20,000 nt of DNA. Source: an uncultured virus (IMG/VR IMGVR_UViG_3300017774_008765) (lineage: Duplodnaviria; Heunggongvirae; Uroviricota; Caudoviricetes). The notes under the pieces were generated by a model. That model saw nothing but the letters and a program-made list of their open reading frames with translations. It was not told the DNA's origin and did no database searches. Shown in pieces: positions 2,431-20,000 of this stretch. Numbering within the stretch: position 1 is the stretch's first letter; every line of letters starts with the position of its first letter. The position numbers were made by a program, and so were the translations under genes. The DNA lies in IMG/VR virus record IMGVR_UViG_3300017774_008765; one strand, given 5' to 3'.

Positions 2431-2858
2431 TTCAGGTCCTTGGGCAGAGTGACGCGGGGCGTCATCTCGACCTTCTGGAGGTACTCCCCGTACACGGCGC
2501 GCAGCTCTCCGGGGAGCCGCTCCATCTGGTCGGCGCGGGCCTCGTAGTACAGCAGGCCGTACTCGACGAGCTGCTTGATGTCGCCGCGCTCCGTGGCGCG
2601 GGAGACCAGCGAGCCCACGTCCACCTTCGTGCTGGTGGGCACCTTCACGTCGAACTTCCGGCCGAGCAGGTCCACCGTGGAGCGGCCCTTGCGCAGCAGA
2701 TCCTCGACCTTCGTGCGGGTCTGCTCGGCCTCCCCGCGGAGCTCGTCGATGCGCGCGTACTCCTCCGGGTGGAGGGCCTTGAGCTCCGCGAAGATCGCGG
2801 CTTCTTCTTCCTTCAGGTTGACCAGTTCAGCGATGGCCTTGGCCAGTTCTTCGGTCAT
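2427..2858 (-). CDS. Hypothetical protein with N-terminal coiled coil (143 aa)
   Basis: Heptad-like E/L/K-rich N-terminus, strong GC3 codon bias and 4-nt overlaps with both neighbours. Confidence 0.8.
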   Translation of the reverse strand: MTEELAKAIAELVNLKEEEAAIFAELKALHPEEYARIDELRGEAEQTRTKVEDLLRKGRSTVDLLGRKFDVKVPTSTKVDVGSLVSRATERGDIKQLVEYGLLYYEARADQMERLPGELRAVYGEYLQKVEMTPRVTLPKDLK

Positions 2859-3613: not shown

Positions 3614-3948
3614 GCGCCGAACAGGCCGGGCAGGAGAATACTGCGCCGTGCCGTCATCATCTCGTAGGTGCGGATGAGATCCGCGTCGGTCTCTGCCGTG
3701 TAGTGCGCAGAGAGCGGAAGGTGCAGCCGCACCGGTCCCTGCGCGGGCAGGAGCGGCGCGGGCATGACCCCCACCGCCCCGCGGGCGGGGTCGGTCATCT
3801 GGAAGCGGAGCTCGATGGTGTCGACCAACACCAGCGTCTCCTTCGTCTTCTCGGCCAGAACCCCCACCAACGTCTTGCCCTGGTAGAACACGACGGTGAG
3901 GTCTTTCAGGTACGCGCCAGCGGGTTGCGGCGACGATTCGCGGTCCAT
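3610..3948 (-). CDS. Hypothetical 112-aa protein, possibly Sm/LSm-like fold
   Basis: Likely start is ATG 3948 with an AGGAG RBS. The sequence (VVFYQGKTLVGVL...LVLVDTIEL...YEMMTARRSILLPG) has an Sm1-like beta pattern. The longer 341-aa ORF call is a shadow extension. Confidence 0.7.
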   Translation of the reverse strand: MDRESSPQPAGAYLKDLTVVFYQGKTLVGVLAEKTKETLVLVDTIELRFQMTDPARGAVGVMPAPLLPAQGPVRLHLPLSAHYTAETDADLIRTYEMMTARRSILLPGLFGA

Positions 3949-7297: not shown

Positions 7298-8037
7298 GCC
7301 TGCACCCGCACGCTCTCCGCGCTTTCGCGGACGAGCTGAGCAAGATCGCAAACACCTCGGGCGTTTCCGAGATCGGCCGGGGGCGCGAGTTCCTTGATGC
7401 GGTTCAGGACACGCCCCGCTCCGCCGGCCGGCTGTTGAACCCGATGACGATAAAGAACGAGGTCCAGGACATCTGGAAGGGGACCTCGAACCAGTCGTCC
7501 AACAACCGGGCCCTCCTCGCCGACGAGGTCTCCTCCGCCAACGAGGCGTTGGCGAAGGCCGGCAAGGGCGGGAAGTACGTGGACGACGTGCTGCACAACC
7601 AGACCGCCGTGGGCAAGCTTCGCCGGGGTGGCTGGCTCGCGAACTTCGGGAAGTACGAGGGCGGCAGCACGTTCCTGAAGGCGCGCAATGCGGTTGCCCG
7701 TGCTCTTCCGGGACAGCGCACGGTCGGCGTGGGGTTCACCGCGCTGGGCGTGCACTCCGATCTCCAGAAGCGGGACGCGACGGGCCGCGAACGCGGCGGC
7801 GCCGAACGCCTGCTCGGCGCGGGCGGAAACCTCGTGGGCGGCGTCGCCGGACTGAACCCGGTCGCGACGCGGCGCATGCTCCCCGGAAGCGGTCAGCGCT
7901 TCTTCGGCGGGGGCGCGGGATCTCTCGTCGGCGGCATGGCCACGCAGATGGCGCTCGGCGGCGCTGGGCGGTTCGCCGGCCGCAAGATCGATGAGATGCG
8001 CGGCTTCAAGCCCACCCCGCCCCCGGAGACCCCGTGA
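7294..8037 (+). CDS. Gly-rich basic protein with glycine-zipper-like segments and an N-terminal AFADELSKIA motif (247 aa); candidate internal virion protein
   Basis: LLGAGGNLVGGVAG and GGGAGSLVGGMATQMALGGAG segments; coupled to the portal by a GTGA overlap. Confidence 0.75.
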   Translation: MSLHPHALRAFADELSKIANTSGVSEIGRGREFLDAVQDTPRSAGRLLNPMTIKNEVQDIWKGTSNQSSNNRALLADEVSSANEALAKAGKGGKYVDDVLHNQTAVGKLRRGGWLANFGKYEGGSTFLKARNAVARALPGQRTVGVGFTALGVHSDLQKRDATGRERGGAERLLGAGGNLVGGVAGLNPVATRRMLPGSGQRFFGGGAGSLVGGMATQMALGGAGRFAGRKIDEMRGFKPTPPPETP

Positions 8038-10148
8038 ACTTTGTCGGAACCAACGTCGATAGCGGGGATCGGTTCAACACGAAGCTCTCCGGTGCCGGGG
8101 GGCGGAGCTTCGGCGTTCGCTATCCGTCGCCGTTCTTCGATGTCGCGCAGCAGTACCTGCCCGGCGACATCCACCAGCTCCACCACTGGTGCCGCTTCTA
8201 CTTCCTGACCAACCCGATCATCAACGTCGCGGTCAGCAAGATGGCGGAGTACCCCGTCACGCCAATCATCTTCGACACCGACGACCCGGAGAAGAAGAAG
8301 CTCTACCAGGGACTGGAGGAGCAGCTCAACATGCGCCAGTTCCAGGTCGAGATCGGCCTGGACCACTTCGCGTACGGCTCGGCCTTCGTGTCGATCTACT
8401 ACCCGTTCGTGAAGTACCTCGTCTGCAAGGGCTGCAAGGAGCGCTACCGCGCCGACGCGAACCGTTCGCTCTACAAGTGGCGCAACATGCGCTTCCGGCT
8501 CAAGTGCCCGAAGTGCAAGACGGACGACTACGCCGAGGAGCGGGACGTCTACATCCGTTCGATCCGGGACGTGCGCCTGGTGCGCTGGAACCCCGAGAAC
8601 ATCGACATCAAGTACAACGAGATCACGGGGGAGAGCCGGTACTTCTACCGAATCCCGAAACCCATCCTGAACGACATCACGATGGGGGATCCCGACACGA
8701 TCGAGAAGCTCTCGATCGAGTTCCTCGACGCCGCGCGCCGGCGGAAGGCGCTCCGGTTCTCGCCGGACAACATCTTCCACCTCAAGCGTCCGACGATCGC
8801 GCAGAAGGATCAGGGCTGGGGGATGCCGCTGATCTACCCGCTCCTGAAGGACGCGTTCTACCTGGCCGTGCTCAAGAAGGCCCAGGAGAGCATCGCGATG
8901 GAGCACATCGTGCCCCTGCGCATGATCTTCCCCGGCCCGTCAACCGGAGGCAACGACTCCCCCTACGGCAGCTACAACCTGTCGAACTGGAAGTCGAAGG
9001 TCGAAGCCGAGCTTTCGTTGTGGAAGCGGGACAACAACTACATCCCCATCCTGCCCGTGAACATCGGCTTCCAGCAGTTCGGCGGCGACGCACGGGCGCT
9101 GATGCTCCACTCGGAGCTGCGGCTGGTCGCCGAACAGATGCTCGTCGGCTGCGGCATCCCCATCGAGTTCGTCTTCGGCGGGCTCTCCTGGTCGGGCAGC
9201 AACACGTCGCTGCGCGCGCTCGAGAACATGTTCCTCGGCTACAACCGGCAGCGCCGGCGGCTGGTGAGCGACTTCATCTTCGGCAACATCGCCGCCTACA
9301 TGCGGTGGCCGAAGGTCGAGTGCCGGTTTGACCGCTTCAAGATGGCGGACGACCTCCAGCGCTCCATGTTCTACCTCCAGCTCAACCAGGCGCTCAAGAT
9401 CAGCGACAAGCGCCTGCACGAGGAGCTGGGAGAGGACACGGAGACCGAGGTGAACCGGATGCGCGACGAGATGAAGATCCAGCTCGGCGTGCAGCGGACG
9501 ATGCAGATGGCCACGGCCGACATCCAGGGCGAGGCGTCGCTCCGCACGTCGCGCTACCAGATGAAGACGCAGGAGCTCCAGAGCAAGGCGCAGATGGAGC
9601 AGCAGGCGCAGATGCAGCAGGCCCAGATGCAGATGCAGCAGCAGCAGCAGGCCCAGGGGGGAGACCCCACCCAGGCCCAGCCGCCGCCCGCCGATCCGAA
9701 CGCCCCGCAAGCGCAAGCGGGGGCGCCAGATCCGAACCAGCAGCAGCAGCCTGCTCCGTCCGCCGACGGACAGGCTGCCGCCCAGCAGGTGCCGGGGATG
9801 CCCGAGGGGGCAACGGTGTACGCCGAGAACGGGCAGCAGGCACCCGGGCAGGGCCTTCCCGTCGCCATGGCGGGGATGGCCTCGCCGCTGAACCAGAACA
9901 GCGGGGGGATCGACCTGCGCTACCTGGCGACCCGCGCCAAGGCGTTCCTCGACACCATCGCCGAGGAGCAGGGCGAGATGGCGGTGCAGCAGAACCTCAT
10001 GCGGATGCGGGCCGAGAACCCGGCGCTCTACCAGCTGGTGAACCAGCTAAGGAACGAGGGCGGGTCCAAGGTCAATCCCATGGACGCCGCCTCCGCGCCC
10101 GTACCGGCGGGCGGCTCGCGCCGCACCGCCGGGCGGACCATCGGGTAA
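8034..10148 (+). CDS. Phage portal protein with an inserted Zn ribbon and Q/P/A-rich C-terminal tail (704 aa)
   Basis: Portal-type succession: TNPIINVAVSKMAEYP, IGLDHFAYGSAFV, WNPENIDI, NIFHLKRP...GWGMPLI, ++ CGIPIEFVFGG and helical wing/crown segments. Insert CKGC...CPKC. Confidence 0.8.
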   Translation: MNFVGTNVDSGDRFNTKLSGAGGRSFGVRYPSPFFDVAQQYLPGDIHQLHHWCRFYFLTNPIINVAVSKMAEYPVTPIIFDTDDPEKKKLYQGLEEQLNMRQFQVEIGLDHFAYGSAFVSIYYPFVKYLVCKGCKERYRADANRSLYKWRNMRFRLKCPKCKTDDYAEERDVYIRSIRDVRLVRWNPENIDIKYNEITGESRYFYRIPKPILNDITMGDPDTIEKLSIEFLDAARRRKALRFSPDNIFHLKRPTIAQKDQGWGMPLIYPLLKDAFYLAVLKKAQESIAMEHIVPLRMIFPGPSTGGNDSPYGSYNLSNWKSKVEAELSLWKRDNNYIPILPVNIGFQQFGGDARALMLHSELRLVAEQMLVGCGIPIEFVFGGLSWSGSNTSLRALENMFLGYNRQRRRLVSDFIFGNIAAYMRWPKVECRFDRFKMADDLQRSMFYLQLNQALKISDKRLHEELGEDTETEVNRMRDEMKIQLGVQRTMQMATADIQGEASLRTSRYQMKTQELQSKAQMEQQAQMQQAQMQMQQQQQAQGGDPTQAQPPPADPNAPQAQAGAPDPNQQQQPAPSADGQAAAQQVPGMPEGATVYAENGQQAPGQGLPVAMAGMASPLNQNSGGIDLRYLATRAKAFLDTIAEEQGEMAVQQNLMRMRAENPALYQLVNQLRNEGGSKVNPMDAASAPVPAGGSRRTAGRTIG
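9565..9850 (+). repeat. Low-complexity CAG-rich (Q/M/A/P) coding tract in the portal tail
   Basis: QELQSKAQMEQQAQMQQAQMQMQQQQQAQGG...QQQQP. Confidence 0.8.
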
Positions 10149-10559
10149 TCAGCCGGCGACGCTGCCGCCCAGCAGCGTCGGATCCACGTGCGGCTCGAGG
10201 CACCCGAGGTGGTAGCCCACCTCGGGTTCCCCGTTCGGCATGGGGTGTGTCTCCAGCCCGTACGGCTGCACGGAGTGAAGGGACACCATCACCACATGCT
10301 GGCCGAACTCGTAGACCTCGTTGCACCACGCGCACGTTCCGCCGGTCGTCATCCCTACACCAAAGAGGCCGCGGGATGCCTGCCCGACGAAGCAGTCGTG
10401 GTGGTGGAACAGCTCATGGGAGCCATCCGCGAAGGAGTCCTCGTGCAGGCACGGTACGCCGCGAAGGCGTCCCTGTCCCAGCCGGAAGGCGCCCAGGTTG
10501 ACGGCGTAGTCCCCGACGTAAAGCGCCTTTGCGCACCATCCGCAGGCGTAGTCGCTCAT
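10149..10559 (-). CDS. Protein with two tandem CxxC...HxxC zinc-binding modules (136 aa)
   Basis: ATG 10559 with a GGAGG RBS and ATGA overlap. CGWC...HHDC and CAWC...HLGC suggest an internal duplication. Confidence 0.75.
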   Translation of the reverse strand: MSDYACGWCAKALYVGDYAVNLGAFRLGQGRLRGVPCLHEDSFADGSHELFHHHDCFVGQASRGLFGVGMTTGGTCAWCNEVYEFGQHVVMVSLHSVQPYGLETHPMPNGEPEVGYHLGCLEPHVDPTLLGGSVAG

Positions 10560-10849
10560 GGAACCTCCAGGGCAAGGACGATGGAGTAGCCCCCGCAGCT
10601 GTCGCACGCGCCGTCCGTCCAGTACGGAAGAGAGCGCCCGTCTCGCACACAGCCCGTACAGAGCCAGCGTCCTCCCTCCGGCCGGTAGGCGCAGTTGCGA
10701 CAGTCTATGTACGCGCAGCTGCCCACTCCGGCGGCTTCCCGACGCGCCGGGCAGTAGGCGAGCTGCGCCCCTTCTGTAAACCCCGCCTCCGAGAGAGGGA
10801 TCTCCCCAGGGGGGAGCAGCCCGCCCAGTCCCTCGTGCAGACGGGACAT
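10556..10849 (-). CDS. Cys-rich putative zinc-finger protein (97 aa, 8 Cys)
   Basis: YCP...SC, CRNC, CTGC, CDSC. The start is placed at ATG 10849 (uncertain) because the upstream part of the ORF call overlaps two better small ORFs. Confidence 0.7.
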   Translation of the reverse strand: MSRLHEGLGGLLPPGEIPLSEAGFTEGAQLAYCPARREAAGVGSCAYIDCRNCAYRPEGGRWLCTGCVRDGRSLPYWTDGACDSCGGYSIVLALEVP

Positions 10850-10866
10850 GAGCGGGCTGCGCCGTC

Positions 10867-10947
10867 TTACCACCTGAAACTTCCGAAGAAGTCCTTCAGG
10901 AACCGCGAGAAGCCGAGCAGGAACGCGAAGCCGAAGAGCGCGCCCAT
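10867..10947 (-). CDS. 26-aa hydrophobic/amphipathic peptide MGALFGFAFLLGFSRFLKDFFGSFRW
   Basis: Manual translation. TGATG coupling to the upstream small ORF; all eight Phe codons are TTC. Confidence 0.55.
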   Translation of the reverse strand: MGALFGFAFLLGFSRFLKDFFGSFRW

Positions 10948-11087
10948 CAGCGGTCATCCTCGTCGGCGTCGGTGCCGCTGCCACTGCTGCTTCCGAAAGC
11001 GCTGTCGTCGTCGTTGGAGTAGCCGAGCGCCTCATCGAGGGATGAGGCGAAATCTACGAGGGAGGAAGCGTTGTTGTCGTCGTCCAT
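10947..11087 (-). CDS. 46-aa highly acidic D/S-rich protein MDDDNNASSLVDFASSLDEALGYSNDDDSAFGSSSGSGTDADEDDR
   Basis: Manual translation. GGAGA RBS upstream of the ATG; first gene after motif copy 2. Confidence 0.6.
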   Translation of the reverse strand: MDDDNNASSLVDFASSLDEALGYSNDDDSAFGSSSGSGTDADEDDR

Positions 11088-11128
11088 GTGATTCTCCGGG
11101 AAATACACGCTGGTGTTCACGTGCAATT

Positions 11129-11143
11129 TCTTATGCCGTTATC
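11129..11143 (-). promoter_or_regulatory. Conserved 15-nt motif GATAACGGCATAAGA; candidate phage promoter, copy 2
   Basis: 13/15 identical to 5812-5826, 41 nt upstream of the ATG at 11087. Confidence 0.6.
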
Positions 11144-11145
11144 CG

Positions 11146-11154
11146 TGTTAGCCT
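11146..11154 (+). promoter_or_regulatory. Extended -10-like element TG-T-TAGCCT upstream of the RNAP gene
   Basis: Fits TGnTAnnnT and ends 7 nt before the ATG at 11162, which has no Shine-Dalgarno sequence. Confidence 0.35.
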
Positions 11155-11161
11155 TTGCCCC

Positions 11162-14100
11162 ATGCCGGACATCAATCCCGAGGCCGAGTTCGAGAGCGTC
11201 AAGCAGAAGGCGCTCGATGCGATCCGTCAGCAGTTCCCCATGTCCGGCAAGCTCAACCGCCTGGAGCTCGTGGGACTGGAGGCGAAGGACGCCCTGCACG
11301 TCGACGACGTGACGTCGCAGTACAAGAAGAAGGTCGAGGGCGGAACGTGGTCCGTTCCCGTGCGCGCCCAGCTCAAGCTGGTGGACGTGCAGACCGGGAA
11401 GACGCTCGACTCCGGAACGGTCACCCTGGCCCAGATCCCCAAGATTACGCGGCGCTACACCTACATCGTCGAGGGACACGAGCGGCAGCACGACTCGCTC
11501 TTCCTCCTCAAGCCTGGGATCTACCACCGCGTCGCGGACAACGGCGACATCCAAGCGAAGTGGAACCTCCAGAAGGGGCGTAACTTCGACCTCCTGATCG
11601 ACCGGGCCACCGGCCGTATCACGATGAAGATCAAGACGGCGGAGGTCCCTCTCTACTCGGTGCTCAAGGCCCTGAACGTGGCCGATGGGGACATCGAGCA
11701 GGCGCTGGGCCGGCAGGTCTTCGAGAAGAACCGGGAGCGCACCAGTTCGAAGGACCTGGTGAAGATCCCGAAGACCCTCTCCGACGGGCAGGACGCCAAG
11801 CGCACCGCGGCGGCCCTCCACCCCGACGAGGCCGCGACGAAGGTGCGCGATCTGTTCGCCCAGACCGCGACCACGCGGCCGGATGGAGACACGCACTCGA
11901 CGCTCGACGTCGCGTTCACCTCGGTGACGGGCCCGGCGCTCCTCGAGTCGGCGAAGCGCATCCTGCAAATCTCTCGCGGAGAGAAGGAACCCGACGACCG
12001 CCAGTCGCTTGGCGCCAAGGACATCCACGGCACCGCGGAGTTCGTCGAGCGGTTCATCACCCGCGCGAAGATGGACGTGACGCGCAAGATCGTGGCGCGC
12101 ATCGACAAGTCCGCCAAGCTCACGGACCTGCCGGTCAACAACCTCTACACCTCGCCCATCAACGGGACGTTCCGCAACGCGCAGTTCCCCGAGCAGCACA
12201 ACCCGCTCGGGTTCTTGTCCGGTCACCTGCGCACGACGATCGTCGGGGCCGACTACGGCGGGGTGAAGGGCGAGGACGTGAACCTCTCCGAGGACAAGCT
12301 CATCAACCCGTCGCACATCGGGTTCCTCGACCCGGTACAGACGCCCGAGTCGGCGGTGACGGGCATCTCGCTCCACCTCCCCATCGGCGCGCGCAAGAAG
12401 GGCAAGCAGCTCGTCACGCGGGTCTGGGACGTGAAGAAGAAGAGCTTCGTCGAGGTCGCGCCGCAGCAGCTCGAGCGCGCCGTCGTGGCGTACCCTGACC
12501 AGGTGGAGTGGAAGAACGGGCAGCCCTCCCCGCGCGAGCCGGAGGTCGTCGTCTACGACAAGGACCGCACGACCGGCCGCCGGAAGTGGGCGGAGGTCGA
12601 CTACGTTCTCCCGTCGGCGAAGGCGCTGTTCTCGTTCTCGGCCAACCTCGTCCCGTTCCTGTCCACCAACTCCGGCGGCCGCGCGATGATGGCGGCCAAG
12701 CAGCAGGAGCAGGCGATCGCGCTCAAGCACCGCGAGGCGCCGCTCGTCCAGACGAAGACGGACGGCACCGCCACCTTCCAGCAGCTCGTCGGGCAGTTCG
12801 CATCGCACAGCTCGCCGGTGGACGGCACCGTCACCAAGGTCGAGGCGGACGCGATCTTCGTGAAGGGAGCGGACGGCACCACGAAGAAGGTGCCGATCTA
12901 CGACCACTTCCCGCTCAACGGCGGGAAGGACATGATGCACGCCACGCCCCTGGTCAAGCCGGGCGACACGGTGAAGAAAGGCCAGACGCTCGCGGACACG
13001 AACTACTCGAAGGACGGCCAGTTCGCGGTCGGAACGAACCTGCGCGTCGCGTACACTCCGTTCCACGGCCTCACGTTCGAGGACTCGATCATCATCTCGC
13101 AGTCCGCGGCCGAGAAGCTGACCTCCGAGCACCTGCACGAGAACTCGGTCACGCTCTACCCGGGCATGTCGCTCAACAAGCGGCTCTGGCAGAACTACGC
13201 CATGCCCGAGCAGACGAACCCGCAGCGCATGGGCAAGCTCGACGAGGACGGCATCATCAAGCAGGGCCAGAAGGTCGAGCACGGGGACGTGCTGGTGGCC
13301 GTGCTCGCGGAGACGCGCCACAATCCGAACGACGAGGCGGCGAGCATCTCGAAGAAGCTCATCCGTCCCTACGACACCCGTCACTCGGTTCTCTGGGAGC
13401 ACGACTACCCCGGCGTCGTGGCCAAGGTCGTCCGCGCGGGCAAGACGATCCGCGTCTACGTGCGAACCGAGGAGCCGATGACCGTCGGCGACAAGCTGAC
13501 GGGGCGCTACGGCAACAAGGGCATCGTCGGGACGATCTTGCCCGACCACGAAATGCCGCACGACACGGACGGCAAGCCGGTCGAGGTCATCCTCGGCCCC
13601 GCCGGCGTCCCGAGCCGCATGAACGTCGGGCAGCTGCTTGAGACGACCGCCGCGAAGATCGCCAAGAAGACCGGCCAGAACTACGTCGTCGACAACTTCC
13701 AGCCGGGCGTGGACTACACCCAGAAGGTCAAGGACGACCTGAAGAAGCACGGGCTCTCGGACACCGAGGTCCTGCTCGACCCGAAGACGAAGCGCCCGAT
13801 CGGCGAGATCCTCACCGGGTTCCAGTACCTCCACAAGCTCCACCACCAGGTGGACAAGAAGATGACCGCGCGCTCGCACGGCGGCGCGTACGACGCCAAC
13901 GGCGAACCGCCGAGCGGCTCGGGGATCCCCGGCGGCGGGCAGACCCTCGACCAGCTTGCGACCTACGCGATGCTCGCGCACGGGGCCTACGCGAACCTGC
14001 GCGAGGCGCAGACGTGGAAGTCCGACCAGGATCAGGCGGACGTGTGGATCGCGCTCCAGCAGGGGCGTCCTCTGCCGGACCCGAAGCCGAACCGCAGCAT

Positions 14101-17100
14101 GGGCAAGCTCATCGGGTACATGCGCGCGATGGGCATCCACATGGAGAAGAAGGGCGACAAGTACGCCCTCGCCCCGCTCACCGACCACCAGGTCAAGACG
14201 TTCAGCAACGGGGCGATCGACTTCCCCAGCAAGACGCTCACCGCCAAGGGGGCGCGTACCCTCGAAGACGTGGGCGGCCTGTTCGATCCAAAGAAGACCG
14301 GCGGCATGGGCGGGAAGTACTGGACGCACATCCCGCTCGCCGAGCGGATGCCGAACCCCGTGTTCGAGCGGGCGATCCAGGCGCTCACCGGGATCGACAA
14401 GAAGACCTACGAGCAGATCACCGGCGGCGCCGCGGCGCCGGAGGCGGGGAAGACCGGCTTCCAGCGGATCGTCCACGCGCTCGAGCAGGTCGACGTGGAG
14501 AAGGAGATCAAGACGCTCGACCAGCAGCTGCCGAAGCTCACCGGCAGCCGGCTGGATCGCGCGTACCGCCGCATGCGCTACCTCAAGGCGCTCACGAAGC
14601 TCGGCGTGAAGCCGGTGGACGCGTACACCACGCAGAACCTCCCGGTGCTCCCGCCGGAGATGCGGCGCGTCATGGTCGGCATCGACGGCAGCCAGACGAT
14701 CGACGACCTCAACGTGCTGTACAAATCGGTCGGGCTGCTCAACGAGCAGGTGAAGAAGGCGGACCCCAAGCTCCCGCCCTCTGAGAAGCAGAAGCTCCAG
14801 GCCGACCTGTACCACTCGGTGCGGCAGCTGCGCATCACCGGCCTTGAGATGGGGCAGGGCACCAAGGAGCGCCACCACCGAGGCCTCATGGAGATGATGG
14901 AGGGGACGAAGACCTCGTTCTTCCAGTCCTCCGTCATGTACCGCCGGCAGGATCTCTCCGGGCGCTCGACGATCATCACCGCCCCGCACCTCGGACTGGA
15001 CGAGGTCGGCGTTCCGCAGCCGATCGCGTTCGAGATGTTCAAGCCGTTCATCGTCAAGGAGCTCGCGCAGTCGCACGGCAAGACGCCGGCCGAGGCGAAG
15101 AAGCTCGTGGACAAGAAGGACAAGCTCGCGCTCGAGGTCCTGCACAAGGTCACCGCCGACCGTCCCGTGCTGCTCAAGCGCGATCCCGCGCTCCACAAGT
15201 TCTCGATCATGGGGTTCAAGGTCCGTGTCACCGACGGCAAGGCCATCGGGCTGCACCCAATGGTGTGCGCCGGGTTCAACGCCGACCACGACGGGGACAC
15301 GATGGCGCTCTACGTCCCGCTCGGAAAGGAAGCGGTGGACGAGGCGCACGGCATGCTGCCCTCAAAGAACCTCTTCTCGCCGACCACCGGGCGCATCATG
15401 CCGGTGCCGGTCCAGGACGGCGTCCTCGGGCTGTACCACGCGACGAAGTGGGGCGAGAAGAAGAACGTAAAGGTCACGTCCCGCGACGAGGTGCTCAAGC
15501 TCTACAAGGACGGGAAGCTCCACATCTCGGACGTCATCACGTTGGACGGGAAAGAGACCACGCCGGGGCGCCTGCTCCTGGCGGGTGAGTTGCCCAAGGA
15601 GATGCAGAACAACGACAAGCTCCTGCACGACAAGGACTTCCGCATCGCCAAGGGCACGTTGAACACGTTCATGTCGGAGATCGGCAAGAAGCACCAACAG
15701 GACTACGCGCGCGTGGCCGACGCGTGGAAGAACCACGGCAACCGCATCGCCTACGAGAGCGGCTCGAGCTTCTCCCTCCACGACTTCCACGACGCCAAGC
15801 CGATGCGCGACGCAATCCTCAAGAAGTACGAGGCGGAAGAGAAGGCGGTGCGCGCGTCGAAGCTCTCTGACAAAGAGAAGAACGACAAGATCGTCGAGAT
15901 CTACAGCAAGGCGGGGCAGGAGATCGAGGAGAAGGGAAAGGCCCACTACAACAACTCCGACAAGAACCGGCTCTACGATTGGATCGCCGCCGGCGCGCGC
16001 GGCGACTGGAACCAGTTCCGCCAGATGACCTACGGACCGCTGCTCGTCGCCGACCCGAAGAACCGCGCGGTGCCGGTGCCGATCACCAAGTCCTACGCGG
16101 AGGGCCTGCCCATCTCGCAGTACTGGACCTCGATGCACGGTGCCCGAAAAGGGGCGATCGACCGCTCCGCCGGAACGGCCGAGCCCGGCGCGCTCACCAA
16201 GGTCATCATCAACACCGTCATCGACCACCAGATCTCCGCCGAGGACTGCCACACCACGAAGGGCGCGCACCTCTCGCTCGACGACAAGGACGTGCACGAC
16301 CGCTACCTCGCGCAGCCCGTCCACATCACCGGCGGCAAGGACGTGCCCGCGGGCACGTTGTTGACCGCGCCGGAGATCACCCACCTCAAGGCGGCGAAGA
16401 TCACGCAGGTCGTCGTCCGTTCTCCGCTGCACTGCGCGCAGTCCAAGGGCGTCTGCGCGCGCTGCTACGGCTTGAACGAGAACGGCAAGCTCTACCACAC
16501 CGGCACGAACGTCGGCGTCATCGCCGGACAGGCGCTCGGCGAGCCGGTCACCCAGCTGGCGATGCGGACCTTCCACACCGGCGGCACCGTCGGATCCCAG
16601 AAGGGAACCGGCTACGAGGCCGACGCGTTCGAGCGCGTGAAGCAGCTCTTCAAGGTCCCGGAGAAGCTGCCCGGCGCCGCGACGATCGCCATGAAGGCCG
16701 GCACGATCACCAAGGTGGAGGCGGACAAGGCGCGCGGCGGGCACGTCGTCCACGTCGAGGACCACGCCCACCACGTCCTCGCGGACCGTCCGCTGCTCGA
16801 CCACATCAAGCCCGGCCTGAAGGTCGAGGCCGGCCACGCGCTCTCGCAGGGGCCGATCAACCCGCACCACCTCCTCGAGGCGACGAAGAACCTCAACATC
16901 GTCCGCAAGTTCATGACCGACGAGGCGCTCCGCTACTACCCCTCCGGGACGCGGCGGCGGAACGTCGAGACGGTCGTGAAGGCGATGACGAACGTCACCA
17001 AGATCGACCACGCGCCGACGGACAGCCACTTTGCCCGTGGCCAGCTCGCCGCGCTCTCCGAGGTCGAGCACTACAACCTCGAGGCGAAGAAGAAGGGGCA

Positions 17101-17341
17101 CGCGCTCATCGAGCACACGCCCCAGCTCAAGAGCATGGAGCAGGTGCCGCTGACCTACTCCGAGGACTGGATGGCACGGGCGAACTACCGCTACTTGAAG
17201 AACACCTTCGAGGAGGGCGCCGCGCAGGCGTGGAGCTCGGACATCTACTCCTCCAACGTCGCCGGCCTTGCCCACGGCGCCGAGTACGGCAAAAAGCGTC
17301 CCGTCCCCTACGCGCCGCCCCCTCCCGGGATCCGGAAGTGA
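11162..17341 (+). CDS. Single-polypeptide DNA-directed RNA polymerase, fused beta + beta' homolog (~2059 aa), phage-encoded
   Basis: Beta motifs: QTPE, GGRAMMAAKQQEQA, TFEDSIIIS, GDKLTGRYGNKG, GVPSRMNVGQLLE, KLHHQVDKKMTARS. Beta' motifs: LPVLPPEMR, DLSGRSTI, VLLKRDPALH, FNADHDGDTMA, HGARKG, CAQSKGVCARCYG, GEPVTQLAMRTFHTGG. No stop between the halves. The start is set at ATG 11162, where codon bias begins. Confidence 0.96.
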   Translation: MPDINPEAEFESVKQKALDAIRQQFPMSGKLNRLELVGLEAKDALHVDDVTSQYKKKVEGGTWSVPVRAQLKLVDVQTGKTLDSGTVTLAQIPKITRRYTYIVEGHERQHDSLFLLKPGIYHRVADNGDIQAKWNLQKGRNFDLLIDRATGRITMKIKTAEVPLYSVLKALNVADGDIEQALGRQVFEKNRERTSSKDLVKIPKTLSDGQDAKRTAAALHPDEAATKVRDLFAQTATTRPDGDTHSTLDVAFTSVTGPALLESAKRILQISRGEKEPDDRQSLGAKDIHGTAEFVERFITRAKMDVTRKIVARIDKSAKLTDLPVNNLYTSPINGTFRNAQFPEQHNPLGFLSGHLRTTIVGADYGGVKGEDVNLSEDKLINPSHIGFLDPVQTPESAVTGISLHLPIGARKKGKQLVTRVWDVKKKSFVEVAPQQLERAVVAYPDQVEWKNGQPSPREPEVVVYDKDRTTGRRKWAEVDYVLPSAKALFSFSANLVPFLSTNSGGRAMMAAKQQEQAIALKHREAPLVQTKTDGTATFQQLVGQFASHSSPVDGTVTKVEADAIFVKGADGTTKKVPIYDHFPLNGGKDMMHATPLVKPGDTVKKGQTLADTNYSKDGQFAVGTNLRVAYTPFHGLTFEDSIIISQSAAEKLTSEHLHENSVTLYPGMSLNKRLWQNYAMPEQTNPQRMGKLDEDGIIKQGQKVEHGDVLVAVLAETRHNPNDEAASISKKLIRPYDTRHSVLWEHDYPGVVAKVVRAGKTIRVYVRTEEPMTVGDKLTGRYGNKGIVGTILPDHEMPHDTDGKPVEVILGPAGVPSRMNVGQLLETTAAKIAKKTGQNYVVDNFQPGVDYTQKVKDDLKKHGLSDTEVLLDPKTKRPIGEILTGFQYLHKLHHQVDKKMTARSHGGAYDANGEPPSGSGIPGGGQTLDQLATYAMLAHGAYANLREAQTWKSDQDQADVWIALQQGRPLPDPKPNRSMGKLIGYMRAMGIHMEKKGDKYALAPLTDHQVKTFSNGAIDFPSKTLTAKGARTLEDVGGLFDPKKTGGMGGKYWTHIPLAERMPNPVFERAIQALTGIDKKTYEQITGGAAAPEAGKTGFQRIVHALEQVDVEKEIKTLDQQLPKLTGSRLDRAYRRMRYLKALTKLGVKPVDAYTTQNLPVLPPEMRRVMVGIDGSQTIDDLNVLYKSVGLLNEQVKKADPKLPPSEKQKLQADLYHSVRQLRITGLEMGQGTKERHHRGLMEMMEGTKTSFFQSSVMYRRQDLSGRSTIITAPHLGLDEVGVPQPIAFEMFKPFIVKELAQSHGKTPAEAKKLVDKKDKLALEVLHKVTADRPVLLKRDPALHKFSIMGFKVRVTDGKAIGLHPMVCAGFNADHDGDTMALYVPLGKEAVDEAHGMLPSKNLFSPTTGRIMPVPVQDGVLGLYHATKWGEKKNVKVTSRDEVLKLYKDGKLHISDVITLDGKETTPGRLLLAGELPKEMQNNDKLLHDKDFRIAKGTLNTFMSEIGKKHQQDYARVADAWKNHGNRIAYESGSSFSLHDFHDAKPMRDAILKKYEAEEKAVRASKLSDKEKNDKIVEIYSKAGQEIEEKGKAHYNNSDKNRLYDWIAAGARGDWNQFRQMTYGPLLVADPKNRAVPVPITKSYAEGLPISQYWTSMHGARKGAIDRSAGTAEPGALTKVIINTVIDHQISAEDCHTTKGAHLSLDDKDVHDRYLAQPVHITGGKDVPAGTLLTAPEITHLKAAKITQVVVRSPLHCAQSKGVCARCYGLNENGKLYHTGTNVGVIAGQALGEPVTQLAMRTFHTGGTVGSQKGTGYEADAFERVKQLFKVPEKLPGAATIAMKAGTITKVEADKARGGHVVHVEDHAHHVLADRPLLDHIKPGLKVEAGHALSQGPINPHHLLEATKNLNIVRKFMTDEALRYYPSGTRRRNVETVVKAMTNVTKIDHAPTDSHFARGQLAALSEVEHYNLEAKKKGHALIEHTPQLKSMEQVPLTYSEDWMARANYRYLKNTFEEGAAQAWSSDIYSSNVAGLAHGAEYGKKRPVPYAPPPPGIRK

Positions 17342-18312
17342 GCGCGGCGACCAACGGACGGCGCGCCGCGATCATCGAAGCGGGGCGCATCACGCGCGTG
17401 GACCCGGCGACGTGGACGTGCGTCGTCGAGTCCGAGACCAGTCCGCGCCGCACCTACACGCCCTGCACGTTCGCGGCACCGTATCTGCACTACAACGGGG
17501 GCGAGGGGATGTACGCCCTGCCCGAGCGCGGCGCGGCCGTGTGGGTGTGCCGGACCTCCGAGGTCGACACCGCGGGGGTGATCCTCGGCTACCGCGCGCT
17601 CGCCAACGGCACGGGAAGCTACGCCGCGGGACGTGGGCAGGCGATCCCCGGCGACCAAGTCATGGTGGGACGCAACGGCAACGGCGTGCATGTCCGCCGC
17701 AACGGCACGACCGAGATCGGATCGAGCCGCGTGGCGTGGACGTCGTACGAACCCTTCCGCGGCTACGTACGGACCCACGCGGGAAACTGGGAGGTCACGA
17801 CCTTCGGCGGCACGCTCGGTCTGACGACCGCACGTCCGGAGGAGGACGACGAGGGCCGGCAGGGTGCCAAGTTCACCCTGGCCGTGCGCGAGTTCGTGAG
17901 CGACACCTACGCGGTCGCCCGCCTGGAGGTCGGTGGCCAGATCGAAGAGGAGTCCGAGACGGTTGTGGACCCCGTCCTCCATCTCCAGGTCAACGCCGCC
18001 GACGGCGAGGAGCGCGCGGTACGGGTGGCGGCGAACCGCGACGGAGATCTCGGACTGGAGCTCTTTCAGGCGAAGATCCAGCTCGACGCCGACGGCGCGG
18101 TCCAGATCTACGAGACCGCTACGGACGCGACCGAGCCGATGATCCGCGGTACGTCTTTCCTCACCGACCTACACGCCTCCCTCACCGAGATCTACACGGC
18201 GCTTATGGCGCTCGGCGTTCCGCTGACCGTGACGAAGGCGCTGCTGGACCGCATTCAGGTCTCGCTGGACACCGAGAGCGAGTTGCTCACTCCCCGTCTC
18301 AAGGTAGAATAA
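17338..18312 (+). CDS. Baseplate central spike-like protein (Gp5/GpV-type N-terminal OB fold, 324 aa)
   Basis: GTG start overlaps the RNAP stop. GRITRVDPATWTCVV...GEGMYALPERGAAVWV is an OB-fold spike pattern, followed by a beta-rich middle and an EPMIRG...LLTPRLKVE end. Confidence 0.7.
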   Translation: MSAATNGRRAAIIEAGRITRVDPATWTCVVESETSPRRTYTPCTFAAPYLHYNGGEGMYALPERGAAVWVCRTSEVDTAGVILGYRALANGTGSYAAGRGQAIPGDQVMVGRNGNGVHVRRNGTTEIGSSRVAWTSYEPFRGYVRTHAGNWEVTTFGGTLGLTTARPEEDDEGRQGAKFTLAVREFVSDTYAVARLEVGGQIEEESETVVDPVLHLQVNAADGEERAVRVAANRDGDLGLELFQAKIQLDADGAVQIYETATDATEPMIRGTSFLTDLHASLTEIYTALMALGVPLTVTKALLDRIQVSLDTESELLTPRLKVE

Positions 18313-18534
18313 ATGGCGCTCAATTCCGCTGTCCTCAGCACCGCCATCCAGGCCCAGCTCGCCACCCGTCCGGAACTGGCCAACGCCGGAATCGATCTCT
18401 CCTGGATGGCCAACGCGATCGCCGAGGCGGTCGTCACGCACATCACCACCTCCGCCATCGTACTCATCCCCAGCGTGTCCGGCGTAACCACCGGGAGCGG
18501 GGTATCCGGCCCAGGAACGGGTACAATCACCTGA
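18313..18534 (+). CDS. Small spike-associated protein (73 aa)
   Basis: Starts immediately after the spike stop. Helical MALN...ANAIAEAVVTHI followed by a G/T/S-rich C-terminus (GPGTGTIT). Confidence 0.65.
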   Translation: MALNSAVLSTAIQAQLATRPELANAGIDLSWMANAIAEAVVTHITTSAIVLIPSVSGVTTGSGVSGPGTGTIT

Positions 18535-18569
18535 CCTGTGCTACACCTCTTTCGTTCTGAGAGCCCTGC

Positions 18570-20000
18570 ATGCCCTCCACGCACGAGCCCCTTTTCTTCA
18601 CGCCGGTCGATCCGTTTTCTCTGTTCGAGAAATCGGCGGCAATTGCCCGGATGCCCGACGACGAGAAGCGCTGGCCCGCCCAGGTACTCTCCGAGATGCA
18701 CAAGCAGCTCCCGTTCCTGTCGAAGTACGACGTGGACATCGAGCTCACGCGCATCGACGCCGAAGCCGGCTACGCGCTCGGCTACGCGATCGTGCGCAAC
18801 AAGACCGGGCGGCAGCGCGCGGAGGAGCAGCTCGGCAAGCCCACGAACCGGATGCGGATTCCGGTCATCGTATCGGACCGCCAGCTCCAGCCGTTCCACG
18901 TCTTCGAGCTCGGCGGCACGGTCTACCCGCTCACGCAGGAGCGCGTCGATGCGGCGATGATCAACCCGTCGATGTTCGACGGCGCCGTCGATACCACCCC
19001 CGCGTCGCCGTCGCTGGTCGACCAAATCTACCCGCCGTTCCAGCACCGCCAGGGGAACGGCATGGCGTCCTCGGACCGCCAGGCCGCTGGGCTCGCGAAG
19101 CTCAGCTCCGCGCGGTTTGCCACGAAAACCGCGAGCGGGGAACCTGGCCCGCTCCGGGAGTTTCTTCGGCGTGAGGACTTCGACAAGGAAGCCGTAAACC
19201 TTACCACTATGGCCGCAGGAAAGGGGATCGCAGCGGCCCTGAAAGGGGGTACCCTGATGAAGGGCACGGCGGCCTTTGACGAAGCCGTCGCCGCGGCCCG
19301 TGCGGCGAAGAAGGCAAACCCGGGCATGAAGGTTACGCGGTCTCAAGCACGCCAGTTCCCCGTCAAGTCCATCGAGCCCAACAGCCCGCTTCTAAAGCTC
19401 GAGGGCATGACGCTGCGTACCCCGGAGCAAGGGGGCAAGTTCCTCGCCCCCGCGGGGCCCGCAACTACACCCAAGCAAGTTGTTGTTCAGCGTGGAACGG
19501 GCCCCGGACCCGGAGCCCCCGCTCCCGTCACGACCGCTCCCGTCACGACCGCTCCCGTCACGACCGCTCCCGTCACGCCTATCAGAGACGTCGCACCCCC
19601 GCCGCCGCCGGCGGGCAGGGCCCCAGCAGGCGCTCCGCTGCCCGCCACCGACGCGTCCGCCGTTCGTACAGTCCCTCCGGTGCGGCGTGAGCCGATTCGT
19701 TTTGCGCCTGAGCCAGGTCCGGTTCAGGTTACCCAAACGCGGGGTAGCACGGCCTTTAGAGAGCCACGTCGCCCAGACCTCTCGGGTATGAGCGAAGCGC
19801 AGCGACGCGCGTACCTGGGGGAGCAGGGGGTCAACCCTTCCATGAAGCCGGAGACCGCGCAGACGTTCCTCTCCGACCTCGACGCGCACGTTGCCGGAGG
19901 CGGAAAGGCAGAGGACTTCTTCCGGTACAACGCCACGACGCCCGAGGCACGCCGTCTTTTTGGGGTGTCCATGGGAAACCGGCAGGTCGCGACCACTGCC
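18570..20000 (+). CDS. Large hypothetical, probably virion protein; truncated at the window end
   Basis: Manual translation MPSTHEPLFFTPVDPFSLFEKSAAIARMPDDEKRWPAQVLSEMHKQLPFL...RMRIPVIVSDRQLQPFHVF..., open to 20000 (477 codons). Missing from the ORF track because it has no stop. Confidence 0.85.
   Translation, partial: MPSTHEPLFFTPVDPFSLFEKSAAIARMPDDEKRWPAQVLSEMHKQLPFLSKYDVDIELTRIDAEAGYALGYAIVRNKTGRQRAEEQLGKPTNRMRIPVIVSDRQLQPFHVFELGGTVYPLTQERVDAAMINPSMFDGAVDTTPASPSLVDQIYPPFQHRQGNGMASSDRQAAGLAKLSSARFATKTASGEPGPLREFLRREDFDKEAVNLTTMAAGKGIAAALKGGTLMKGTAAFDEAVAAARAAKKANPGMKVTRSQARQFPVKSIEPNSPLLKLEGMTLRTPEQGGKFLAPAGPATTPKQVVVQRGTGPGPGAPAPVTTAPVTTAPVTTAPVTPIRDVAPPPPPAGRAPAGAPLPATDASAVRTVPPVRREPIRFAPEPGPVQVTQTRGSTAFREPRRPDLSGMSEAQRRAYLGEQGVNPSMKPETAQTFLSDLDAHVAGGGKAEDFFRYNATTPEARRLFGVSMGNRQVATTA
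19521..19577 (+). repeat. 15-bp tandem repeat GCTCCCGTCACGACC x3.8, encoding (APVTT)3-APVT
   Basis: Perfect copies at 19521, 19536 and 19551, and a partial copy at 19566. Confidence 0.95.

What the first reader, a model, noticed from the sequence alone, without database searches (positions are those of the whole stretch)
11162..17341. Streamlined single-chain beta-beta' RNA polymerase in a phage genome
Seen: one ORF carries beta then beta' motifs in bacterial order. The beta C-terminus (NRSMGKLIGYMRAMGIHME) is joined to the beta' N-terminus (YALAPLTDHQVKTFSNG) by only about 4 residues near 14140-14170. At ~2059 aa it is about 700 aa shorter than E. coli beta+beta'. No alpha, omega, sigma or ribosomal protein genes are in the window. 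Known: beta-beta' fusions occur in Helicobacter and Wolbachia, phiKZ-like phage RNAPs are split rather than fused, and uncultured Caudovirales with deep-branching multisubunit RNAPs (mReC) have been reported from metagenomes. Inference: this is a minimal cellular-type RNAP of such a lineage, which to my knowledge is not biochemically characterised.
Basis: partly seen in the sequence, partly recalled or inferred. Interest (0 to 1): 0.9.

Follow-up and report, generated by a model that had tools for sequence, protein, structure and literature searches.

The report
Single-chain phage RNA polymerase beside portal
A freshwater phage encodes both large subunits of a bacterial-type RNA polymerase as one 2,059-residue protein among its particle genes; this is the usual layout in a large phage lineage whose enzyme has never been studied biochemically.

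Summary
Window 11162-17341 (+) is one open frame of 2,059 aa. It aligns almost end to end with bacterial beta (residues 19-996) and then beta' (about 1001-2030). The beta end and the beta' start are joined by about four residues.

The fusion is real. It is kept in all 150 listed cluster representatives that span the junction. The junction motif is conserved. A contig from another metagenome run bridges it without any difference.

The gene is phage-borne. It lies between the portal gene and a baseplate-spike-like gene. This order is shared with eight IMG/VR contigs and with the cultured Salmonella phage Arash and Vibrio phage D69.

In two trees the phage enzymes form one clade, far from all sampled bacteria. 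Split forms are nested among fused ones.

"Streamlined" is overstated. About 420 of the 690 missing residues are insertions specific to the E. coli lineage. The real losses include the beta' zinc-binding domain.

Near-complete relatives have one polymerase gene and no alpha or omega. They do have a sigma-like gene.

In Arash the homologue gives the most spectra in particle proteomics, so a virion-carried enzyme is the likeliest reading.

The scan has found this lineage before on other DNA. My searches found no paper describing the fused form.

The parts
11162..17341 (+). Fused beta-beta' RNA polymerase gene (2,059 aa + TGA)
   Evidence: One open frame. Pfam Rpb2 then Rpb1 domains. 40-66% identical full-length homologues.
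11162..14149 (+). Beta-like module (residues 1-996)
   Evidence: Aligns to Taq beta 78-1101 of 1,119. Aligns to Salmonella beta up to 3 residues from its end.
13487..13519 (+). Beta active-site motif GDKLTGRYGNKG (residues 776-786)
   Evidence: G776, D777, K778, G784, N785 and K786 are invariant in 23 sequences. Lies inside Pfam Rpb2_6.
14144..14164 (+). Junction E995-K-K-G-D-K-Y1001 joining the beta C-end to the beta' N-end
   Evidence: The motif EKKGDxYxLxPLTDxQ is conserved. A contig of run X4 bridges it without change.
14150..17338 (+). Beta'-like module (residues 997-2059); its first ~92 residues replace beta' 1-172 and lack the zinc-binding domain
   Evidence: There is no Cys in residues 997-1100 in 94 of 97 family members.
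15278..15298 (+). Catalytic motif NADHDGD (residues 1373-1379)
   Evidence: The three Asp are present in 97 of 97 sequences. Position 1376 is H in 6 of 97 and F in 91 of 97.
16247..16465 (+). Second beta' zinc site (C1696, C1758, C1765, C1768)
   Evidence: All four Cys are present in 97 of 97 sequences.
16526..16585 (+). Uninterrupted trigger loop (GQALGEPVTQLAMRTFHTGG)
   Evidence: Aligned to bacterial beta'. The 186-aa insertion of enterobacterial beta' (948-1133) is absent.
8034..10148 (+). Portal protein gene (704 aa) upstream
   Evidence: 53-62% identical to the gene just upstream of the polymerase in 8 of 8 IMG/VR relatives. 28-32% identical to Arash gp204 'portal protein' and its D69 homologue. 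Weak hit to phrog_2833 portal.
17338..18312 (+). Downstream gene (324 aa); its GTG start overlaps the polymerase stop (GTGA); baseplate-spike-like OB domain
   Evidence: Pfam Phage_base_V E 0.015, below the cut-off. Homologues lie directly after the polymerase in 8 relatives.
10149..11126 (-). Small minus-strand ORFs between portal and polymerase (136-aa and 97-aa Cys-rich, 59-aa acidic); context only
   Evidence: GC3 and reading of the sequence. No family hits and no homologues in relatives.

Best explanation
The gene encodes the catalytic core of a phage's own bacterial-type RNA polymerase, made as one polypeptide.

Shown:
- The whole of beta is followed by the whole of beta'.
- The catalytic Asp triad, the beta lysine motif, the bridge helix, an uninterrupted trigger loop, the clamp helices and the second zinc site are all kept.
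- The junction is a conserved element, not a loose linker.
- The fused form is the rule in a large phage clade, and splits elsewhere in the gene are secondary.

Inferred:
- The covalent link does the assembly job that the alpha dimer and omega do in cells. Near-complete relatives have neither.
- Promoters are found with a phage-encoded sigma-like factor. It is present in relatives, but it is not in this 20-kb window.
- The enzyme is made late with the particle genes, packed into the virion and ejected with the DNA. Early phage genes can then be transcribed without the host polymerase.
- Because relatives have only one polymerase gene, the same enzyme probably serves the whole infection.
For: Sequence and architecture:
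- Domain order and motifs.
- Near end-to-end alignment to solved bacterial beta and beta'.
- Bacterial beta chains score 180-249 bits, against 88-117 bits for archaeal and eukaryotic ones.
- Junction conserved: 86 of 97 sequences have the same length. All 150 listed representatives span it, and 124 clusters score E<=1e-30.
- An independent contig bridges the junction.

Phage context and synteny:
- Portal upstream in 8 of 8 IMG/VR relatives, and in Arash and D69.
- A baseplate-spike-like gene is translationally coupled downstream and conserved in 8 relatives.

Phylogeny:
- LG+G4, 60 rows x 1,664 columns: phage clade versus 34 bacterial rows, SH-aLRT 100.
- LG+C20 PMSF, 36 rows x 751 columns: same split, SH-aLRT 100, with split forms nested among fused ones.

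Whole records of relatives (4 records, 2 near-complete):
- One polymerase gene each.
- No alpha in 4 of 4 (PF01000, PF01193) and no omega in 4 of 4 (PF01192). Each of these searches rang in all 14 control genomes.
- A homologue of Arash Gp10 in 3 of 4, E 1e-15 to 1e-19. Sigma70_r3 is above the Pfam cut-off in 2 of those 3.
- 19 sigma-like homologues were found.

Virion evidence (PMC10585845, passages read):
- Arash Gp206 gives the most spectra in the particle proteome (3,516).
- Gp216 (1,210 spectra) and sigma Gp10 (467) are also detected.
Against: - There are no proteomic, expression or activity data for this phage.
- The Arash particles were purified on a sucrose gradient only. 116 proteins were found, including ribonucleotide reductases and RNA ligases. 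The authors themselves allow carry-over of abundant proteins. Spectral counts also rise with protein length.
- The window holds no sigma gene, and the rest of this genome is not held.
- Sigma70_r2 was not detected in any of the 4 relatives' records at E<=0.01. Region 4 gave only hits below the cut-off.
- The beta flap-tip region is divergent and the beta' zinc-binding domain is missing. Sigma binding of the textbook kind is therefore not assured.
- Absence of alpha and omega rests on Pfam models, which could miss a very divergent substitute.
- No structure could be predicted.
Confidence: 0.6

Rival explanations
1. It is an active phage RNA polymerase that is not packaged. Host polymerase transcribes the early genes. 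The fused enzyme is made inside the cell and takes over middle and late transcription, like the non-virion polymerases of phiKZ-type phages.
For: The particle proteome of Arash contains many non-structural enzymes, so carry-over is possible. Relatives have only one polymerase gene, whereas known virion-polymerase jumbo phages have two sets (PMC7598289 abstract). There is no direct evidence for this phage.
Against: The gene lies between the portal gene and a baseplate-like gene and is translationally coupled to the latter. This placement is conserved in relatives. A polymerase expressed with late particle genes would come too late to serve as a middle-gene enzyme. Gp206 gives the most spectra in Arash particles, and sigma Gp10 is found there too.
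Confidence: 0.27
2. It is a cellular rpoBC fusion gene of a bacterium (as in Helicobacter or Wolbachia), or a recent transfer from one, on a chromosomal fragment.
For: Natural beta-beta' fusions exist in bacteria. The best NCBIfam hit by E-value is the fused beta/beta' model PRK09603.
Against: The score is 544 bits against a cut-off of 5,372 for PRK09603, and 473 against 4,632 for PRK14844. All rpoB and rpoC equivalog models are also far below their cut-offs. Both trees separate it from all 34 and all 20 bacterial rows with support 100. The neighbours are a portal, a baseplate-like gene, a primase and helicases, with no ribosomal protein genes. Relatives are 115-188-kb viral contigs.
Confidence: 0.01
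3. The fusion is an assembly or sequencing artefact: a lost stop codon or a frameshift between two adjacent genes.
For: One relative (L005) differs from its near-twin L004 by a single-base deletion exactly at the junction, which gives two overlapping genes. The state can therefore flip with one base.
Against: All 150 listed cluster representatives span the junction in one chain, and 109 of the 150 are 1,900 aa or longer. The junction motif is conserved. A contig from another run bridges it unchanged, and no indel was seen in four runs. Where the gene is split in the lineage (Arash, D69, L026, L107, L119), the split lies elsewhere and the junction is retained.
Confidence: 0.01
4. It is a catalytically dead polymerase relic that now serves as a structural or ejection protein of the virion.
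For: It sits among the particle genes. It has the unusual NADHDGD instead of NADFDGD, and it has lost the zinc-binding domain.
Against: The Asp triad, the beta lysine motif and the zinc site are invariant in 97 of 97 or 23 of 23 sequences. Conservation runs along the whole 2,059 aa at 40-66% identity, which fits selection on the enzyme. The H variant does not touch a catalytic residue.
Confidence: 0.03

Closest known systems
RNA polymerase of Salmonella phage Arash (gp206 + gp216, with sigma Gp10) and of Vibrio phages D69, D148 and D181
   Same: Same lineage. 29-32% identity over 71-97% of the query. Same gene order: helicase, portal, small ORF, polymerase. Same clade in both trees. The beta to beta' junction is also fused in gp206.
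   Different: There the gene is cut after the catalytic domain (profile position about 1470) into a 1,525-aa chain and a roughly 600-aa chain, with other genes in between. Here it is one uninterrupted chain. Particle proteomics exists for Arash but no polymerase biochemistry.
mReC phages (Weinheimer and Aylward 2020, PMC7481178)
   Same: Uncultured tailed phages with full-length, alignable beta and beta' that branch apart from cellular polymerases (abstract and sections read). The NADxDGD criterion is met here.
   Different: All 104 listed mReC rows have beta and beta' as two proteins, and the text does not mention a fusion in mReC. Rows of 1,521-1,563 + 997-1,038 aa resemble the split relative L107 (1,529 + 1,044 aa). 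Some overlap of the two groups is therefore possible but untested.
Bacterial rpoBC fusions (NCBIfam PRK09603 and PRK14844 'subunit beta/beta''; the attribution to Helicobacter and Wolbachia is recalled)
   Same: Beta is joined to beta' in the same order at the natural chain ends.
   Different: Scores lie far below those families' cut-offs. Those enzymes still work with alpha, omega and cellular sigma (recalled). The clade here is separate.
phiKZ / AR9-type jumbo-phage multisubunit polymerases
   Same: Phage-encoded two-barrel polymerases without alpha. One set is carried in the virion (PMC7598289, PMC7824862, passages read).
   Different: Those are split into 4-5 polypeptides, come in two sets, are much more divergent and have no sigma. 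PHROG hits to them are weak, E 1e-36 to 1e-5, against 6e-121 for the best family.
Single-chain virion polymerases of crAss-like phages and Thermus phage P23-45
   Same: One polypeptide carries both barrels and is delivered with the virion (PMC7481178 passages; bioRxiv 10.1101/2022.12.01.518664, abstract in the listing).
   Different: Those share little beyond the barrels and are not detected with the beta and beta' COG models. This protein aligns with bacterial beta and beta' over about 1,750-1,900 of 2,058 profile positions.

Membership tests
Bacterial-type two-barrel RNA polymerase core (beta + beta') | Beta' catalytic NADFDGD Asp triad | tested here: met
   NADHDGD at residues 1373-1379. 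The three Asp are present in 97 of 97 family members. Pfam Rpb1_2 E 5e-30.
Bacterial-type two-barrel RNA polymerase core (beta + beta') | Beta barrel with the GDK...GNKG lysine motif (Rpb2 domain 6) | tested here: met
   Pfam Rpb2_6 E 4e-63. The motif is invariant in 23 of 23 sequences.
Bacterial-type two-barrel RNA polymerase core (beta + beta') | Bridge helix, trigger loop, clamp helices and second zinc site | tested here: met
   Aligned without large gaps to solved beta'. The four Cys are present in 97 of 97 sequences.
Bacterial-type two-barrel RNA polymerase core (beta + beta') | N-terminal beta' zinc-binding domain (four Cys) | tested here: not met
   Query 997-1088 (92 aa) stands for beta' 1-172. 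There is no Cys in 997-1100 in 94 of 97 sequences.
Cellular rpoB / rpoC / rpoBC equivalogs (NCBIfam) | Score at or above the curated cut-off | tested here: not met
   rpoC_TIGR 519 bits against 963.5. PRK00405 351 against 896. PRK09603 544 against 5,372. PRK14844 473 against 4,632.
Cellular rpoB / rpoC / rpoBC equivalogs (NCBIfam) | Nests within a bacterial phylum; ribosomal-protein gene context | tested here: not met
   It lies on the phage side of a branch with support 100 in both trees. There are no ribosomal protein genes among the 24 ORFs scanned.
mReC phages (PMC7481178) | Beta and beta' COG matches, at least 800 aa, NADxDGD motif | tested here: inconclusive
   The motif and the length criterion are met. 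The COG0085 and COG0086 models were not on hand; the Pfam and NCBIfam counterparts hit strongly. The paper's lists contain only two-protein pairs.
mReC phages (PMC7481178) | Placement inside the mReC clade of the polymerase tree | not testable with these tools
   No mReC sequences were available under the paper's contig names. Six metagenome ids with fused contigs are absent from its Dataset 2.
Arash / D69 phage lineage | Polymerase homology plus portal-polymerase synteny | tested here: met
Arash / D69 phage lineage | Two-chain layout (beta + front of beta', back of beta' separate) | tested here: not met
   The window has one uninterrupted chain.
phiKZ-type jumbo-phage polymerases | 4-5 split subunits, two sets per genome, no sigma | tested here: not met
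   Single chain. Each of 4 relatives has one gene. A sigma-like gene is present in 3 of 4.
Virion-packaged polymerase | Protein present in purified particles | not testable with these tools
   Known only by proxy: Arash Gp206 and Gp216 in sucrose-gradient particles.

The most novel reading that the evidence does not exclude
The single 2,059-residue chain and one small phage sigma-like protein together form a complete holoenzyme that needs no alpha or omega. Both are packed in the capsid and ejected with the DNA. They then run the phage's whole transcription programme independently of the host polymerase. This would be the simplest known bacterial-type transcription machine: two polypeptides.
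Probability: 0.35. Interest if true: 0.85.

Novelty: new variant of a known kind. Interest (0 to 1): 0.7.

Why it matters
Cellular RNA polymerases need an alpha dimer (or its archaeal and eukaryotic counterparts) to bring the two large subunits together. Here a large natural family dispenses with alpha and omega and links the two subunits covalently. It still stays alignable with the bacterial enzyme over nearly its whole length. That gives a tractable system with one gene for the core. It can be used to ask three questions:
- What do alpha, omega and the beta' zinc-binding domain really contribute?
- How can a roughly 230-kDa polymerase be packed and ejected?
- How does a phage sigma direct it?

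Cultured relatives (Arash on Salmonella, D69 on Vibrio) make the virion and rifampicin experiments possible now.

The family also bears on the debate about whether phage polymerases are ancient or fast-evolving captures. The published survey of such phages appears to have missed the fused forms.

Tried and rejected
Tools that gave nothing:
There is therefore no fold evidence for the junction or for the missing zinc-binding domain.
- Complex prediction (beta' clamp region of P0047 with the sigma-like P0402) was not available. Sigma binding is untested.
- No whole genome is held for the window.

Computations that failed or gave no signal:
- The mixture-model tree on 60 rows x 1,664 columns did not finish in two calls. 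I replaced it by LG+G4 on the full set and by the mixture model on 36 rows x 751 columns.
- hmmalign gave only local spans for Salmonella. I replaced it by multi-domain hmmsearch mapping.
- The sigma-70-type promoter scan found 0 sites and the terminator count was at chance.
- Rfam gave 0 hits and there are no tRNAs.
- The repeat search gave no shared intergenic motif.
- PADLOC gave nothing for six neighbouring ORFs.

Wrong ORF choices, corrected:
- Two ORFs I first took as genes (10188-10589 + and 17268-18560 +) were wrong frames. They had no homologues, and GC3 and the sequence point to other frames.

Look-ups that led nowhere:
- Matching IMG/VR contig ids to the mReC supplement failed because the naming differs.
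- P0148, tried as a possible separate beta', led to another split variant (L119), not to an mReC-type pair.
- Cluster look-up gave no organism names.
- Sequence look-up in the scan's notes found nothing.

RNA run: X9 holds identical pieces of the gene. This does not show transcription, since DNA may be present in the library.

Full report
**1. What is in the sequence**

The window has 63-69% G+C, so spurious ORFs abound. The frame 10529-17341 (+) is open. Real coding sequence starts at the ATG at 11162, for two reasons:
- The translation upstream of it is Arg/Cys/Pro-rich read-through.
- The family consensus begins with the same M-x-x-L-N-P-E.

The product has 2,059 residues. Pfam finds Rpb2 domain 6 at 590-908 (E 4e-63). 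Weak Rpb2_2 and Rpb2_3 hits lie before it, and Rpb1 domains 1, 2, 3 and 5 lie between 1157 and 1829.

**2. The junction**

- A profile built from 97 full-length family members aligns Salmonella beta up to residue 1377 of the annotated 1,380, at query K996.
- It aligns Salmonella beta' 174-334 strongly.
- It aligns beta' 30-63 weakly (E 0.29) but in the right order, from about V1011.
- About four residues (K997-K1000) therefore connect the natural end of beta to a beta' that lacks its first ~20 residues.
- The segment is not a floppy linker. Query 985-1015 has the same length in 86 of 97 sequences, and EKKGDxYxLxPLTDxQ is conserved.
- A contig from run X4, a freshwater metagenome not flagged as the source, covers 13957-15244 with no difference and no gap. 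No indel was listed in any of the four runs laid.

**3. What is kept and what is lost**

Against solved chains:
- Residues 51-996 align with Thermus aquaticus beta 78-1101 of 1,119.
- Residues 1098-1980 align with a 1,188-aa bacterial beta' at 193-1109.
- Bacterial beta chains score 180-249 bits. Archaeal and eukaryotic ones score 88-117 bits. The enzyme is therefore of the bacterial type.

A block map against Salmonella was made. E. coli numbering below assumes that the annotated beta start lies 38 codons upstream of the usual one. The map shows these differences:
- Beta 236-422 is reduced to 64 aa.
- Beta 934-1046 is absent.
- Beta 1127-1193 is reduced to 15 aa.
- Beta' 1-172 is reduced to 92 aa.
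- Three small deletions are present in beta' (10-17 aa each).
- Beta' 948-1133 is absent, so the trigger loop is uninterrupted.
- The C-terminal tail is shorter.

By recall, the three large gaps correspond to the lineage-specific insertions SI1, SI2 and SI3 of E. coli. They make up about 420 of the 690 missing residues. Compared with compact bacterial enzymes the protein is only about 250 aa shorter.

Family-wide conservation (97 sequences unless stated):
- No Cys occurs in the first ~100 beta' residues in 94 of 97. The zinc-binding domain is therefore lost across the family.
- The second zinc site (four Cys) is present in 97 of 97.
- The catalytic Asp triad is present in 97 of 97.
- The window has NADHDGD. 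H occurs at that position in 6 of 97 and F in 91.
- The clamp helices align without large gaps.
- The flap-tip region is divergent.

**4. It is a phage gene**

Neighbouring genes:
- Minus strand: a primase zinc ribbon (1-428), a DnaB-type helicase (425-1822), a UDG-family protein (2855-3613) and an SF2 helicase (3906-5309).
- Plus strand: three unknown genes, then a 704-aa portal (8034-10148), the polymerase, and a 324-aa gene.
- The 324-aa gene has a GTG start that overlaps the polymerase stop (GTGA). It carries a weak baseplate-spike OB-domain match (E 0.015, below the cut-off).

Synteny with relatives:
- Eight IMG/VR contigs share the order helicase, UDG, helicase, unknowns, portal, polymerase.
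- Eight relatives carry the baseplate-like gene directly downstream.
- tblastn against cultured phages finds Vibrio phages D69, D181 and D148 (29% identity, 97% cover) and Salmonella phage Arash (32%) as the best true phage hits. They have the same portal-small ORF-polymerase order.
- Several other 'phage' hits are bacterial rpoBC regions filed as phage records.

**5. Size and shape of the family**

- The word-indexed search lists 120 clusters at 90% identity. They are 40-66% identical over the whole length, mostly 2,040-2,120 aa, and sit on contigs of up to 210 kb. Some carry intein or homing-endonuclease domains.
- A 201-residue query across the junction, run against 1.84 billion representatives, finds 124 proteins at E<=1e-30 and 766 at E<=1e-10.
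- All 150 listed proteins match across the junction in one chain. Of these, 109 are at least 1,900 aa and 63 exceed 2,200 aa.

Layouts seen in fetched loci:
- Fully fused: L004, L108, L109, L112 and L116.
- Fused with large insertions: L007 (two), L113 and L117.
- Split after the catalytic domain at profile position ~1470: Arash, D69 and L026.
- Split at ~1062: L107.
- Split inside beta at ~784: L119.
- In every one of these the beta to beta' junction itself is retained.
- The one exception is L005. It differs from its near-twin L004 by a single-base deletion at the junction. This creates a TGA that overlaps an ATG, and so gives two coupled genes.

**6. Phylogeny**

Rows were built from profile-aligned columns, merging separate ORFs of one genome.

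Tree 1:
- LG+G4, 60 rows x 1,664 columns. L026 and L034 were dropped as too incomplete.
- The 26 phage rows (24 fused plus Arash and D69) fall on one side of a branch with SH-aLRT 100. All 34 bacterial rows fall on the other side.
- The bacterial rows are Pseudomonadota, Bacillota, Actinomycetota, four candidate-phyla rows, and 19 rows from Cyanobacteria, Melainabacteria and Margulisbacteria.
- The connecting branch is about 1.1 changes per site.

Tree 2:
- LG+C20+F+G4 PMSF, 36 rows x 751 columns.
- It gives the same split, with support 100 and a branch of about 1.9.
- L107 falls inside a fused subclade. Arash and D69 fall in a basal polytomy with fused rows. The layout label needs at least two changes.

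Limits of both trees:
- There is no archaeal or eukaryotic outgroup and there are no mReC sequences.
- The bacterial sample is biased.
- Only 'quick' searches were run.
- The tool warned that long branches meet.

NCBIfam scores for every rpoB, rpoC and rpoBC equivalog are far below the curated cut-offs.

**7. Other subunits**

Four relatives' whole records were searched. Two are 99-100% complete by CheckV.
- Each has one polymerase gene.
- None has a hit to the alpha domains PF01000 and PF01193 or to omega PF01192 at E<=0.01. Each of these searches rang in all 14 control genomes.
- Sigma70_r2 gave nothing. Region 4 gave only hits below the cut-off.
- Arash Gp10 is annotated as a sigma factor, with Sigma70_r3 at E 9e-9. 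It has homologues in 3 of the 4 records, at E 1e-15 to 1e-19.
- These homologues carry Sigma70_r3 above the cut-off in 2 of 3. They give weak full-length matches to sigma subfamilies.
- A search with one of them finds 19 homologues.
- The lineage therefore most likely uses its own sigma-like factor. The window itself is too short to show one.

**8. Virion carriage**

The evidence comes from the Arash paper (PMC10585845; passages read).
- In particles purified on a sucrose gradient, Gp206 has the most spectra (3,516). Gp216 has 1,210 and sigma Gp10 has 467.
- 116 proteins were detected, including ribonucleotide reductases. The authors allow carry-over.
- The conserved placement between the portal and baseplate-like genes, and the translational coupling to the latter, point the same way.
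- I rate virion carriage as likely but unproven.

**9. Literature**

- The mReC paper (PMC7481178) was read as abstract, sections 6 and 12, passages, and Supplementary Dataset 2 parts 1 and 10-12.
- It mentions a fusion only for crAss-like phages.
- All 104 of its 'Metagenomic phage' rows list two different proteins.
- Six metagenome ids that hold fused contigs are absent from that file. One of them does appear in the paper's capsid reference sheet. This suggests that the pipeline did not retain fused genes. That is an inference.
- Two jumbo-phage reviews (PMC7598289 and PMC7824862, passages read) do not describe this form.
- Five full-text searches found no paper on a fused beta-beta' phage polymerase of this kind. 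Subscription journals are not covered.
- The scan's own notes show that the same lineage was found before on other DNA.

**10. Verdict**

It is untested on mReC membership and probably wrong on independence from sigma.
- The enzyme is a new variant (fully fused, alpha-less and omega-less, with its own sigma-like partner in relatives) of a known kind (phage-encoded multisubunit-type RNA polymerase).

Noticed in passing
L004:13040-13160 versus L005:13040-13160: Two near-identical IMG/VR contigs differ by one deleted G inside the junction codons. In L005 this ends beta at a TGA that overlaps an ATG (ATGA) starting beta'. One base therefore turns the fused gene into two coupled genes. It could be a sequencing error or a natural variant.
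   Followed up: partly
L119, L107, L001, L002, L026, L007, L113, L117: The lineage shows splits at profile positions ~784, ~1062 and ~1470. It also shows large in-frame insertions at ~400, ~784, ~1390 and ~1812, and 63 of 150 junction-spanning representatives exceed 2,200 aa. This looks like repeated invasion by inteins or homing endonucleases at a few hot spots.
   Followed up: partly
window 10149-11126 (-): Small minus-strand ORFs lie between the portal gene and the polymerase: a 136-aa Cys/His-rich one, a 97-aa Cys-rich one and a 59-aa acidic one. They have no family hit and no counterpart in relatives, which have a small plus-strand ORF there instead. The polymerase is left with its own 35-75-bp upstream region without an obvious Shine-Dalgarno sequence.
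   Followed up: partly
window 19504-19578: A 15-nt unit (CCGCTCCCGTCACGA) is repeated four to five times in tandem inside the ORF 18570-20000. The first 180 residues of that ORF are conserved in relatives.
   Followed up: no
window 9599-9656: A glutamine-rich 15-nt repeat (QQAQM...) lies near the C-terminus of the portal protein.
   Followed up: no
L024 (162.5-kb contig of a Leptolyngbyaceae MAG): A genome-collection contig binned as a cyanobacterium carries a full-length fused polymerase (40% identity) and the baseplate-like gene after it. It groups with the phage clade in the tree. It is probably a phage contig in a bacterial bin, or a hint to a host.
   Followed up: partly
L011, L104, L105, L106 (records of the 'phages' collection): Records named Enterococcus phage Efs 1-1-1, Staphylococcus phage SA 1306 Kay and Acinetobacter phage MD-2021a, and Salmonella WGS contigs, contain ordinary bacterial rpoB-rpoC. 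In L011 and L105 ribosomal protein genes lie beside them. They cluster with bacteria in the tree, so these are bacterial DNA filed as phage.
   Followed up: partly
window 15287-15289 (residue 1376): The catalytic motif reads NADHDGD. His replaces the usual Phe in only 6 of 97 family members.
   Followed up: partly
window 11443-15911, run X9: A freshwater metatranscriptome run holds short contigs identical to parts of the gene (for example 14701-15103). This is a weak hint of expression in nature. DNA carry-over is not excluded.
   Followed up: no
PMC7481178 Supplementary Dataset 2: Several mReC contigs carry two polymerase sets on one contig (labelled a and b: about 1,360 + 1,005 aa and about 1,000 + 900 aa). 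The relatives of this window have only one.
   Followed up: no
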